NCBI RefSeq assembly: GCF_003334335.1
Contig: NZ_QOWQ01000055.1
Direction: 5' to 3' (one strand)
DNA: 19,253 nt
Origin: Escherichia coli
GTDB taxonomy: Bacteria; Pseudomonadota; Gammaproteobacteria; Enterobacterales; Enterobacteriaceae
Shown: piece by piece, positions 3,984 through 6,609 of the stretch
Layout: each line of letters begins with the position of its first letter
Position numbering within the stretch: position 1 is the stretch's first letter
Notes under the pieces: generated by a model
Told to the model about the DNA's origin: nothing
The model's database searches: none
What the model saw: the letters and a program-made list of their open reading frames with translations, nothing else
Position numbers and translations under genes: made by a program

Positions 3984-6041
3984 TCAGCCAGCCGTGGTCG
4001 TCATACTGCCACTGCTCCGCCGGTTCACCGTGCGCCGGGTGATACGGTCTGACGCATCGTAATGCCAGAGGGTGATAAGCCCCTCGTCTTCACTCTGCGT
4101 GAGTTTTCCGGTCAGGTCATAATGGTAACGTTGCGTCCGCCCGTCAAAGCCGCGCTGTTCAGTCAGCCTGTCCACCGGGTCATACCGGAACGTGGACTGG
4201 CTGCCGTTCTCGTTGGTCAGCACGGTGATGCGCCCGGCAGCGTCATACCCCATGCTGCGCGTCAGACCGCCCTGCGTGGTGCTGATGGCTTTACCCCACG
4301 CATCATACTGTGTCTCACTGCGGCTACCGTCCGGGGCAATGATAGCGGTGAGGTCGCCTGCGGTACTGTACTCATAACGGGTCTCCCGCCCCTGCGCATC
4401 CTTCTGACTGACCAGTTGCCCACGCGGGTTATAACTGCTGTAAGTGCTGATGCCTTCCTCCCGGTGAACGGCGATTTGTTGACCGTACCAGTCGTACTCA
4501 TACCGCGTCGTGTACCCCGAGCAGTCCGTAAAGGCCAGCAGTTGACCGTAACGGCTCCATGCCATCTGTTTTGTACTGCCCGTCGCATCCTCTATCCCTG
4601 TCGGCAGCTCACTCGCCGGGTCATCATAGCTGTAACTCGTCGTCTCACCGCTGCGTGAGGTCTCCGCCGCCAGCCTTCCCTTCTCATCATACTCCCGGCT
4701 GCTGCGAAGCCCGTCCGGGTACGTCACCGACGTCACCTGCCGCTGGCTGTTATAGCCATACCGTACCGTCCTGCCGTCCGGCCCCGTCACCGCCGTCACC
4801 GCACCCGACGCCATATGCAGGCTGTACTCCGTCCGCCGCCCCGCCGCATCCGTCTGCGCCTTCAGCCTCCCCGCCTCATCATACTCGCTGCGGGTGATGC
4901 TCCCGTCCGCATGCTCCTTTTTCACCACCCGCTTCAGGCCACCTTCGCCCTCCGTGTACAGCACCTCCCGCCGGTTCAGACTGTCCGTGATGATTACCCG
5001 GCGCTCTCCGTACTCAAAGCGGTAGTCCAGCCCCTCCGGGTTGACCTGCTCCGTCACCCGACCGGTATCATCATACCGGTAGCGGCTCTCCGGCCTCCCC
5101 GCATAATGGTGCGCCACCATCCGCCCGGCGTGCTCCGCATCATAAGTAAACCCGCGAACCTGCGTCCCGCTGCGGTCATACACCGCCCGCAGTTCTCCGC
5201 TGGCCGTGTACGTGTAGCGCGCCAGCGGCGCAGTCGGCTGTTCATCCGGGTATGCCGGGTCGTGTGTCAGCCATACCGCCTCCAGCCGGATACCGTTATC
5301 GGCACCGTATTCTGTACCGGCGGGCAGCGTGTCGGGGAAAGCTGAAGAAGAAGAGGAAACAGAACGGGGACCGGCCGGAGAAGATAAGGAAGACTCGCGC
5401 TGTTTACGGAAGGCTTCCGCCCGCTGCGCCTGTGTGCTCAGCGCCAGGTGAAAACGGCGACCCGCGCCGTCCGTCACCCTGGTGATTTCGCCAGCCAGTT
5501 CGCCTGCGGCCTCGCGGTGGAAAGCCAGCGTCCGCCCGAAGCCGTCCACCACGCCCGTCAGCACCCGGTATGCGGGCGGCTCCGGCGGCAGCACCTCGTC
5601 CACCTCCGGCACCCGCTCCGGCCAGCTGAGTATCCACCACGGCCCCTGAAGGCTGTTTGCTGCCAGGTACGCATGCGGACTCAGGCGAACATCTTCCGGC
5701 AGCACCTGCCAGAGCGCGCTTAACGGCTGCGAGCTGTGCTGCGTCGCCACCCCGCCCCGCGCCAGCCAGAACGACTCGCTGCGGCTGTAGCTTATCTCGC
5801 CGGGAAACAGCGGCTCAAAGTGAATGCTCCTGCCGCCGCTGTCGTTGAGTATCAGTCCTTCATCGCGTATCTGTAAGCGGATATCGAAGGGCGCTTTCCA
5901 GCCGGGACCGAACACCCCCACCGGCGCGGGCGTCCTGGTCCGGTAGCTGCTGTAAGCGCGGGAAAGAATAAACGGCAACGGGCCGGGCAGCGCAAGGTCC
6001 GTCTCGCCCGGCAGCACCTTCGCACCCAGCACCGGGTTCAC
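3984..6041 (-). pseudogene. rhs: Rhs protein, N-terminal/core fragment (5'-truncated, ends at a frameshift-induced stop)
   Basis: 685-codon ORF with Rhs YD repeats that begins at an internal GTG (PVNPVLGAKVLPGETDLALPGPLPF...). The ~45 N-terminal residues expected in intact Rhs (including the PAAR-containing start, from memory of RhsA) are absent and an in-frame stop lies just upstream. It ends ...[19 protein letters not shown] after the frame break. Confidence 0.8.
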
Positions 6042-6049
6042 CGGGTGGC

Positions 6050-6609
6050 CCTTCTGCTCCTCTACCTTCTACCAGCAGAACCTGAAGCTGTTTATCGATA
6101 ATGACCTGAGTCTGGAGGATGGCGATAACAACGTCATTATTCGCGAAGATATTATTGCGCAACTGGAAACTGCGCAGAAAATCCGTGACATCTTCTTCAG
6201 CAAACAGAACGGTCTGGGAACATCCTTTGCCGTGGAAACGGTATCGCTTTCAGGCAATAAACGCCGCAGTGTACTGAACCTTGACGGTCAGTTAGTCGAT
6301 TACAGCCAGGGCCGTAACTATACCGCCCATCTGGTCTGGCCTAACAACATGCGCGAAGGCAACGAAAGTAAGCTGACGCTCATCGGCACCAGCGGCAACG
6401 CGCCGCGCAGTATCAGCTTCAGCGGGCCGTGGGCGCAGTTCCGCCTGTTCGGGGCCGGACAACTGACCGGAGTACAGGATGGCAACTTTACCGTGCGCTT
6501 TAGCGTGGACGGTGGCGCGATGACCTACCGTGTGCATACCGACACGGAAGATAACCCGTTCAGCGGTGGGTTGTTCAGCCAGTTTGGTCTGTCAGACACA
6601 CTGTACTGA
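6050..6609 (+). pseudogene. tssM: 3'-terminal fragment of a type VI secretion membrane-complex gene (TssM/IcmF-like C-terminal region), lacking its 5' part
   Basis: Plus-strand frame open from the rhs junction to TGA at 6607-6609 (...FYQQNLKLFIDNDLSLEDGDNNVIIREDIIAQLETAQKIRDIFFSK...FSQFGLSDTLY*) with no possible start. Its stop is 10 nt before the start of the next gene. Recognised as TssM-like from memory and from the tssM-tssA-hcp gene order. Confidence 0.55.

What the first reader, a model, noticed from the sequence alone, without database searches (positions are those of the whole stretch)
6039..6065. Deletion junction: 5'-truncated rhs abuts a 3' fragment of tssM
On the minus strand Rhs homology starts abruptly at ...PVNPVLGAK (6041), with the expected ~45 N-terminal residues missing and a stop just upstream. 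On the plus strand a TssM-like C-terminal frame runs from about 6050 to 6609 with no start. With rhs on minus and tssM on plus, one deletion from inside the rhs 5' end to near the tssM 3' end explains both truncations and would have removed vgrG and the core T6SS genes.
Basis: partly seen in the sequence, partly recalled or inferred. Interest (0 to 1): 0.55.

Follow-up and report, generated by a model that had tools for sequence, protein, structure and literature searches.

The report
Deletion scar in decayed T6SS locus
This is a genuine but ordinary deletion scar in an Escherichia coli chromosome, where a beheaded rhs toxin gene is fused back-to-back to the last 16% of the type VI secretion gene tssM; the one unexpected point is that the many such scars at this locus in other strains re-use the same break sites and mostly meet at the dinucleotide TA.

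Summary
The window is E. coli, yafV to dkgB, about 99.9% identical to strain EC416.

At 6063-6064 a minus-strand rhs core gene lacking its first 130 nt (43 codons) meets the last 547 nt (181 codons) of plus-strand tssM. Strain MS 124-1 carries both uninterrupted parental sequences at over 99.8% identity. The two parents share only TA at the joint, and no IS is present. Six of 5,426 complete E. coli genomes carry the identical joint, so it is not a misassembly.

Intact loci read rhs<-vgrG<-hcp | tssB...tssA-tssM-vasL. vgrG and the core T6SS genes are therefore gone (about 21 kb against O157:H7, about 28 kb against a reconstructed two-rhs ancestor). A sibling allele in 54 genomes has the same rhs break but keeps 757 nt more of tssM, so a single step is not proven.

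The same kind of rhs-tssM scar is published for ST410. The finding is already known and of low interest.

Across 30 joints from 20 genomes, 17 overlap at TA (about 3% expected). For 28 of them, break sites coincide far more often than chance (18 coincident pairs against 0.2-1.6 expected). The cause is unexplained.

The parts
1..74 (.). End of an IS1414 (IS256-like) insertion next to the ISAs1 element. It is shared with strain EC416 and absent from type A genomes.
   Evidence: Window 1-15164 aligns with L007 from position 3029. L007 annotation shows IS1414 transposase at 1863-3071. Homology to genomes lacking IS1414 starts at window 75.
75..1313 (-). ISAs1-family (H-repeat) element flanking the rhs module.
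   Evidence: 95-97% identical to ISAs1 copies annotated in L001, L002, L004 and L014.
1599..1991 (-). Small ORF downstream of rhs, the presumed immunity gene (WP_001101839 in identical genomes).
   Evidence: ORF list. Annotated 'hypothetical protein' in L001 and L007. No NCBIfam hit. The immunity role is inferred from its position only.
1969..6064 (-). rhs pseudogene: RHS core plus C-terminal toxin region. It lacks the first 130 nt (43 codons plus 1 nt) and any start codon or promoter.
   Evidence: NF041261 RHS_core positions 44-721 and 747-1261, plus YD repeats and the Rhs-associated core domain. 99.83% identical to intact rhs2 of MS 124-1 up to window 6064. 130 nt are missing.
4016..4029 (-). 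Window-private 7-bp deletion: one copy of the tandem GTTCACC GTTCACC is lost. This frameshifts rhs and splits it into ORFs 3984-6041 and 1969-3951.
   Evidence: Every compared genome that spans this position has the extra GTTCACC.
6063..6064 (.). The joint: the TA dinucleotide is the only sequence shared by the two parental sites (rhs2 ...CTCCTCTA|TCGGG and tssM ...CTGGATA|CCTTCTACC).
   Evidence: Both parents read in one genome, L014. Automated overlap table.
6064..6609 (+). 3' fragment of tssM: the last 181 codons plus stop, containing the IcmF_C domain. It has no start codon.
   Evidence: TIGR03348 positions 986-1167 of 1168. Pfam PF06744. 99.99% identical to intact tssM of L014 from 32003. 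547 of 3435 nt are retained.
6620..7972 (+). Intact VasL-domain gene, the first surviving gene of the distal part of the cluster.
   Evidence: ORF. Annotated WP_001087741 in L001 and L007.
7996..8478 (+). Intact orphan hcp.
   Evidence: ORF. Annotated as an Hcp family T6SS effector, WP_001284199.
11175..11251 (-). tRNA-Asp (aspV), the chromosomal landmark beside which the T6SS island lies.
   Evidence: ARAGORN. Annotation of relatives.

Best explanation
Window 6063-6064 is an inherited deletion scar in the aspV-linked T6SS/rhs island of E. coli.

What was lost. An ancestor carried yafV-ISAs1-immunity-rhs2-(dsORF-ISAs1-immunity-rhs1)-vgrG-hcp|tssB...tssA-tssM-vasL-hcp. It lost everything between codon 44 of the distal rhs (rhs2) and nucleotide about 2889 of tssM.

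How the joint formed. The final joint arose by homology-independent (illegitimate) end joining or template switching at a 2-bp TA overlap. No mobile element remains at the joint.

Consequences.
- The rhs remnant has no start codon, no N-terminal PAAR-like segment, no vgrG partner and, in this strain, an extra 7-bp slippage frameshift.
- The tssM remnant has no start codon and retains only the periplasmic IcmF_C end.
- Both are dead pseudogenes, and this T6SS cannot be assembled.
- The scar is now transmitted vertically in a small lineage.

Shown versus inferred. The identity of both fragments, the parental sequences, the 2-bp overlap, the absence of an IS and the population frequency are shown. 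The joining mechanism, the number of steps and the loss of function are inferred.
For: Fragment identities.

Intact gene order in O157:H7.

Both parental sites in one near-identical genome (MS 124-1): rhs2 99.83% over 5,997 nt and tssM-to-gloB 99.99% over 8,393 nt. The parents overlap only at TA.

The identical joint occurs in 6 of 5,426 finished genomes from pig, bird, human, vegetable and chicken sources.

NCBI annotates both flanks there as 'incomplete; missing N-terminus'.

At least a dozen other deletion alleles of the same island exist, so the island is decaying recurrently.

Against: The number of steps is unresolved. Type A (54 genomes) has the same rhs break joined to tssM+2190. Flank SNPs do not separate type A, type B and the MS 124-1 type.

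Simple random microhomology joining does not explain two things. Break sites at this locus are re-used with different partners, and TA is hugely over-represented.

Loss of function is inferred from sequence alone. No expression or secretion data were available.
Confidence: 0.93

Rival explanations
1. Two-step origin. The commoner type A scar (rhs2 codon 44 joined to tssM+2190) formed first. The window allele then arose by a second 757-bp deletion running from exactly that joint to tssM+2947.
For: Type A and the window share the rhs break to the base. They differ only by the 757 nt of tssM, and TA(C) is present at both ends of the missing piece. The flanks differ by only 2-4 SNPs in 12.5 kb. 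Type A is nine times more frequent (54 against 6 genomes).
Against: The second deletion would have to begin precisely at the earlier joint. That is improbable unless the site is intrinsically hot. No SNP groups A with B to the exclusion of the undeleted MS 124-1 haplotype.
Confidence: 0.45
2. Independent origin. Types A and B arose separately from ancestors with intact rhs2 and tssM, because rhs2 codon 44 is a recurrent break site.
For: Independent re-use is demonstrable elsewhere. tssM+2190 is joined to tssM+1633, tssA+1208, rhs1 and rhs2 in alleles that cannot be derived from one another by simple nesting. The rhs core site 1424 and tssM+2253 are each used 3-4 times. Strain WL164 joins those two hot spots to each other.
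Against: An ancestor with the undeleted interval plus this exact flank haplotype is needed twice. No intermediate was found that carries an intact rhs2-to-tssM interval.
Confidence: 0.4
3. IS insertion-deletion-excision. IS elements once sat at the re-used sites, promoted adjacent deletions of various lengths, and were then excised (for example with the IS-excision enhancer). This would leave clean anchored joints.
For: The route is experimentally documented for IS3 with IEE, and it gives IS-less deletions anchored at the former IS end with 6 bp or less of homology (PMC8860574; PMC9943667). IS activity occurs in this island: IS1A with a retained adjacent deletion in AH02, an IS3-family element inside tssM in YL3, and ISEc12 in ST131 tssM.
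Against: None of 2,634 chromosomes that retain this stretch, among the 5,426 genomes searched, has the 302 nt around the hottest site (tssM+2190) split by an insertion. No IS remnant is present at any of the 30 joints examined. IS3-family ends are TG...CA, which does not predict TA. Many separate insertions would be needed.
Confidence: 0.12
4. Misassembly or chimeric contig at 6063-6065.
For: None, beyond the abruptness of the joint.
Against: The identical 200-nt joint is present in six finished genomes from different laboratories, hosts and countries. The window is collinear with EC416 over 15 kb.
Confidence: 0.01
5. The arrangement arose not by deletion but by illegitimate insertion of an ISAs1-immunity-rhs cassette into a T6SS cluster, displacing it.
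For: Joints at the rhs site 1424 all carry an rhs 3' module, and three of the four also show an ISAs1 copy beside it. They abut four different T6SS positions, which could be read as one cassette end landing in different places.
Against: The window's rhs is near full length and collinear with the resident rhs2 of MS 124-1 up to codon 44, with the yafV-ISAs1 flank unchanged. Nothing has been inserted relative to that genome; sequence has only been lost.
Confidence: 0.03

Closest known systems
rhsG-tssM deletion of E. coli ST410 clade B/H24 (Cummins et al. 2023, Microb Genom 9:001133; PMC10711316)
   Same: Same island next to aspV and the same architecture: a remnant of a minus-strand rhs abuts a remnant of plus-strand tssM. 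About 21 kb carrying vgrG and the structural tss genes is lost. No mobile element is at the joint, and vasL/tssA2 and hcp/tssD2 survive downstream.
   Different: The breakpoints differ. The allele I call type C (rhs+3618 x tssM+1628, strain named ST540) may be the ST410 one, but I did not verify that. The window allele keeps far more rhs (all but 130 nt) and far less tssM (547 nt), and it is rare (6 of 5,426 genomes).
Type A scar (e.g. FORC 064, IAL7250; 54 complete genomes)
   Same: Identical rhs2 break, identical TA overlap and near-identical flanks.
   Different: Keeps 1,304 nt of tssM (from +2190) instead of 547 nt.
IS-mediated adjacent deletion of the same island (strain AH02, IS1A)
   Same: Removes tssB to most of tssM and leaves a short tssM 3' remnant before vasL.
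   Different: The IS1 copy remains at the joint. The window joint has no IS sequence.
Flag-2 (lateral flagella) deletion scar lafU'/'flhA, 15-20 kb away in the same chromosome region
   Same: A large (35.3 kb) IS-free deletion of a dispensable secretion or motility cluster, leaving two truncated genes with short microhomology.
   Different: One fixed joint with an ATC overlap. No TA, and no family of alternative joints was examined.

Membership tests
TssM / IcmF (T6SS membrane-complex subunit) | Full-length match to the TssM equivalog model (TIGR03348, cutoff 388 bits), including the N-terminal transmembrane and NTPase region | tested here: not met
   Only profile positions 986-1167 of 1168 match, at 164 bits against a cutoff of 388. 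There is no start codon.
TssM / IcmF (T6SS membrane-complex subunit) | C-terminal IcmF_C domain | tested here: met
   Pfam PF06744, model positions 1-105 of 106, E=2.7e-26.
RHS element core protein | YD-repeat shell and Rhs-associated core domain (the PxxxxDPxGL region) followed by a variable C-terminal domain | tested here: met
   NF041261 positions 44-721 and 747-1261, TIGR01643 repeats and TIGR03696.
RHS element core protein | Intact N-terminus (residues 1-43, MSGKPAARQGD... segment) with a start codon, and one uninterrupted reading frame | tested here: not met
   The match starts at profile position 44, with a stop two codons upstream. 130 nt are missing relative to L014. A 7-bp frameshift lies at 4023.
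Functional T6SS gene cluster | Presence of the core genes tssA-tssM plus vgrG | tested here: not met
   Between rhs and vasL the window holds only the tssM remnant. In intact loci the core genes occupy about 20 kb there. Other T6SS loci elsewhere in the genome could not be examined.
Microhomology-type (illegitimate) deletion | Both parental sequences are known and share only a few bases at the joint; no repeat of 20 bp or more and no mobile element is present | tested here: met
   The parents in L014 overlap by TA only. There is no IS homology at the joint.
IS-mediated adjacent deletion | An IS copy retained at the joint | tested here: not met
   The joint sequence is rhs directly followed by tssM. 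Contrast AH02.

The most novel reading that the evidence does not exclude
The decay of this T6SS/rhs island may not be random microhomology deletion. It may instead be driven by a sequence-directed breaking or joining activity that prefers TA, often within GGWTATCC-like contexts, and that hits the same few sites again and again in different lineages. The window joint (rhs2 ...CTCTA | tssM ...GGATA) would be one product. Candidates are a site-preferring nuclease or recombinase, or transient IS occupancy followed by excision.
Probability: 0.3. Interest if true: 0.6.

Novelty: already known. Interest (0 to 1): 0.25.

Why it matters
Taken on its own, the joint only documents that this strain has lost its aspV-linked T6SS. 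It also offers a 100-200 nt lineage marker shared by six finished genomes.

More broadly, the locus is a natural experiment in gene-cluster decay. Dozens of independent deletion alleles sit on nearly identical flanks. If the TA bias and the break-site re-use reflect a specific activity, this would be a tractable case of directed loss of a costly weapon system in E. coli. It would also serve as a warning that shared deletion endpoints are not safe markers of common descent.

Tried and rejected
1. I first suspected an IS1 (768 bp) difference between the window and the 59 two-piece hits, because they differ by 757 nt. The extra 757 nt turned out to be tssM sequence.

2. I used O157:H7 and TUM17668 rhs as the parent. 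Homology stopped at 6046 because those alleles have a different N-terminal variant. The correct parent has the ...PIEEQKGH... variant.

3. A palindromic recognition motif GRTAYC, suggested by the first 14 sites, was not supported by the second sample and was dropped.

4. I tried to order types A, B and MS 124-1 by flank SNPs. There were no informative sites.

5. I looked for an IS still sitting at tssM+2190. None was found in 5,426 genomes.

6. I checked ISAs1 element ends for a TA signature. The result was inconclusive.

7. I tested whether TA joints are general, using the Flag-2 scar. Its overlap is ATC, so n=1 against generality.

8. Literature searches for a TA-biased deletion process in E. 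coli found nothing relevant. One paper search failed for lack of capacity.

9. I recalled DnaA-box, IncP nic-site, Vsr and restriction-site resemblances from memory. None fits the set of sites, and none was tested.

Full report
WHAT IS THERE

The window is Escherichia coli chromosome from just past yafV to dkgB. It is collinear with strain EC416 over 15,164 nt, with 1 mismatch and 2 indels.

On the minus strand the frame reads ...W*KVEEQKGHPVNPVLGAKVLPGETD.... NCBIfam RHS_core matches from profile position 44 onward. YD repeats and the Rhs-associated core domain lie further downstream.

On the plus strand a frame without a start codon runs into ...TFYQQNLKLFIDNDLS...LY* and ends at 6609. It matches the last 182 positions of the 1,168-position TssM equivalog model (E=4e-48). 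It contains a complete IcmF_C domain (Pfam PF06744, E=3e-26).

Its coordinates bracket the joint.

EXACT BREAKPOINTS

Strain MS 124-1 (L014) carries both parents on essentially the window's haplotype. Its intact 4,233-nt rhs is 99.83% identical to window 75-6064. Its intact 3,435-nt tssM with downstream genes is 99.99% identical to window 6063-14455.

- The rhs parent reads ...CTTCTGCTCCTCTA|TCGGGC.
- The tssM parent reads ...ATACTGGATA|CCTTCTACC.
- The window reads ...CTCCTCTACCTTCTACC.

The only shared bases are the TA at 6063-6064.

The rhs has lost 130 nt (43 codons plus one base). tssM retains 547 of 3,435 nt.

Rhs homology thus extends to 6064, not 6041. The residues VEEQKGH belong to an N-terminal variant (...CPNSPIEEQKG(N/H)PVNP...) that differs from the O157:H7 variant. 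That difference is why comparison with O157:H7 or TUM17668 stops at 6046.

WHAT WAS LOST

O157:H7 PV15-279 shows the intact order: rhs(-), vgrG(-), hcp(-), then tssB, tssC, tssE, tssF, tssG, tagH, tssJ, tssK, tssL, tssH, vasI, tssA, tssM, vasL, hcp on the plus strand, then aspV. Against that reference about 21.3 kb is missing.

In MS 124-1 the truncated gene's counterpart is the distal member of a two-rhs array: yafV-ISAs1-immunity-rhs2-dsORF-h1-ISAs1-immunity-rhs1'. The reconstructed loss is therefore nearer 28 kb. That figure is my own arithmetic. It includes a second rhs module.

NOT AN ARTEFACT, NOT ANCESTRAL

The identical 200-nt joint is present in 6 of 5,426 complete E. coli genomes: EC416, PEC1009, LR-64-2, LR-29-1, GDSC2BY4G and EEC_W5. 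PGAP annotates both sides in EC416 as partial pseudogenes. No genome encodes full-length products in this arrangement.

In this strain the rhs remnant has a further private lesion. One copy of a tandem GTTCACC is lost at 4023, a slippage frameshift absent from every compared genome that spans this position.

ONE STEP OR SEVERAL

54 genomes (type A, for example FORC 064) have exactly the same rhs break but are joined to tssM+2190. They keep 757 nt more of tssM, again with TA at the joint. The window allele (type B) equals type A minus those 757 nt.

Flank SNPs do not discriminate between type A, type B and the undeleted MS 124-1 type. Both a second deletion anchored at the old joint and an independent hit at the same rhs site remain open.

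CONTEXT: A LOCUS IN RECURRENT DECAY

Of 5,426 genomes, 2,715 match this tssM. Of those, 2,282 cover at least 80% of it and the rest are truncated in many classes.

I mapped 30 joints in 20 genomes onto intact references. Some strains carry several separate deletions that leave small in-order fragments:
- SCU-118 keeps 65 nt of tssA and 558 nt of tssM.
- TUM17668 keeps 134 nt of tssH.

Other events seen at the locus:
- YJR has an inverted 1-kb tssC segment.
- AH02 has an ordinary IS1A-retaining deletion.
- RM9245 has a Mu-like prophage in vasI.

A deletion of this same kind is already published for ST410-B/H24: rhsG-tssM, 21.0 kb, with no mobile element at the site (PMC10711316).

UNEXPECTED REGULARITIES (not part of the original finding)

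(a) TA at the joints. 17 of the 30 joints have an overlap containing TA: TA, TAC, TAT, TATC, TATCC or TTATC. Random joints with at least 2 nt of microhomology in this 56% GC region would contain TA about 2.9% of the time. The pattern was noticed in a first set (11 of 16 joints). It held in a second set chosen afterwards (5 of 12 joints; binomial P about 2e-5, my calculation).

(b) Break sites are re-used with different partners.
- tssM+2190 is used 4 times.
- An rhs core site 1,424 nt from the rhs 3' end is used 4 times.
- tssM+2253 is used 3 times.
- tssM+571, tssM+1631 and the window's rhs2 site are each used twice.
- Strain WL164 joins two previously identified hot spots to each other.

For 28 of the joints (56 ends) there are 18 coincident pairs. 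The expectation is 0.17 for uniform positions and 1.6 if all ends were drawn from TA sites. None of 20,000 simulations reached 18. Some of these alleles cannot be derived from one another by nesting, for example SCU-118 against TUM17668 at tssM+2190. Independent hits therefore do occur.

(c) A motif. GGWTATCC occurs five times on the plus strand of the 27-kb reference interval, and four of those occurrences are break sites. CCGGTACAGC occurs twice, and both occurrences are break sites. These motifs were derived after the fact and should be treated as leads.

(d) Overlap direction. Overlaps almost always begin at the T of TA and extend only rightward (8 right against 1 left). This is weak evidence.

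I could not identify the cause.
- An IS insertion-deletion-excision route is experimentally documented (PMC8860574). However, no chromosome among the 5,426 genomes has an insertion within 150 nt of tssM+2190, and no IS remnant is present at any joint.
- A site-preferring nuclease or recombinase is possible but has no candidate.
- The nearby Flag-2 deletion scar has an ATC overlap, so the TA bias may be specific to this island. That rests on a single comparison.

VERDICT

The finding is real and correctly interpreted as a deletion scar that removed vgrG and the core T6SS genes. Both remnants are pseudogenes. The kind of feature is already known and annotated, so its interest is low.

The re-use of break sites and the TA bias across alleles is the only element a specialist might find surprising. 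It deserves a population-scale test.

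Noticed in passing
window 6063-6064; L001 8664; L002 19439-19443; L006 7000; L008 6001; L009 5936 and 6556; L010 1982 and 6001; L012 10401; L014 24343; L015 8172; L016 13458; L020 6001-6017; L022 5534 and 6293; L004 13128-13132: 17 of 30 deletion joints in the aspV T6SS/rhs island overlap at a TA-containing string. About 3% would be expected. The bias held in a second, independently chosen sample (5 of 12).
   Followed up: partly
Reference coordinates tssM+571, +1631, +2190, +2253; rhs core 1,424 nt from its 3' end (window ~3378-3382); rhs2 codon 44 (window 6063): The same break sites are joined to different partners in different strains: 18 coincident end pairs against 0.2-1.6 expected, with 0 of 20,000 simulations reaching 18. 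Strain WL164 (L024 ~5003) joins two of these hot spots to each other. Shared deletion endpoints here are therefore not reliable evidence of common descent.
   Followed up: partly
REF (O157:H7 composite) 10903, 17882, 24347, 32471 used; 14905 unused; also 28562 and 36316: GGWTATCC occurs five times on the plus strand of the 27-kb island, and four of those occurrences are break sites. The 10-mer CCGGTACAGC occurs twice (tssH+1678, vasL+910), and both are break sites. These motifs were derived after the fact and no binding or cutting factor has been identified.
   Followed up: partly
window 4016-4029: A private 7-bp deletion removes one copy of tandem GTTCACC GTTCACC and frameshifts the rhs pseudogene. 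It is absent from every compared genome that spans this position, including the five others checked with near-identical flanks. It is either strand slippage or a sequencing error in the source assembly.
   Followed up: yes
window 1-74: The window starts inside an IS1414 (IS256-like) copy inserted at the end of the ISAs1 element. This is shared with strain EC416 and absent from type A genomes, so it is a possible sub-lineage marker.
   Followed up: partly
window 8797: A single T where all 13 compared genomes have C, inside the hypothetical gene downstream of hcp. It is private to the source strain.
   Followed up: no
L009 5936-6558; L012 8832-10402; L022 5534-7001: Some strains retain tiny in-order fragments (65 nt of tssA, 134 nt of tssH, 558 nt of tssM) between several separate joints. 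This gives a 'shattered' pattern that suggests either multiple breaks at once or repeated nibbling.
   Followed up: partly
L015 8255-9290: Strain YJR carries an inverted 1,023-nt tssC segment. Both of its joints contain short filler sequence.
   Followed up: partly
L017 22233-29233: Strain RM9245 has a Mu-like prophage (mom, com, tail genes) abutting vasI+428. Whether the rest of the cluster lies beyond the prophage was not checked.
   Followed up: no
L014 3535-3549 against L019 11584 and 46886: This is the Flag-2 lateral-flagella deletion scar (lafU'/'flhA). It removed 35.3 kb and has an ATC overlap within an imperfect TGA.(A/C)ATC match. It is an IS-free scar in the same chromosome neighbourhood that does not follow the TA pattern.
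   Followed up: yes
window 19178-19253: A second tRNA-Asp gene (aspU-like, next to the rrn operon in relatives) lies at the extreme right end of the window. ARAGORN places its end one base beyond the window.
   Followed up: no
L016 17289-20459: Strain 99COLEC has an integrase-bearing element (tyrosine recombinase, inovirus Gp2-like and YfjI-like genes) where aspV lies in the other genomes.
   Followed up: no
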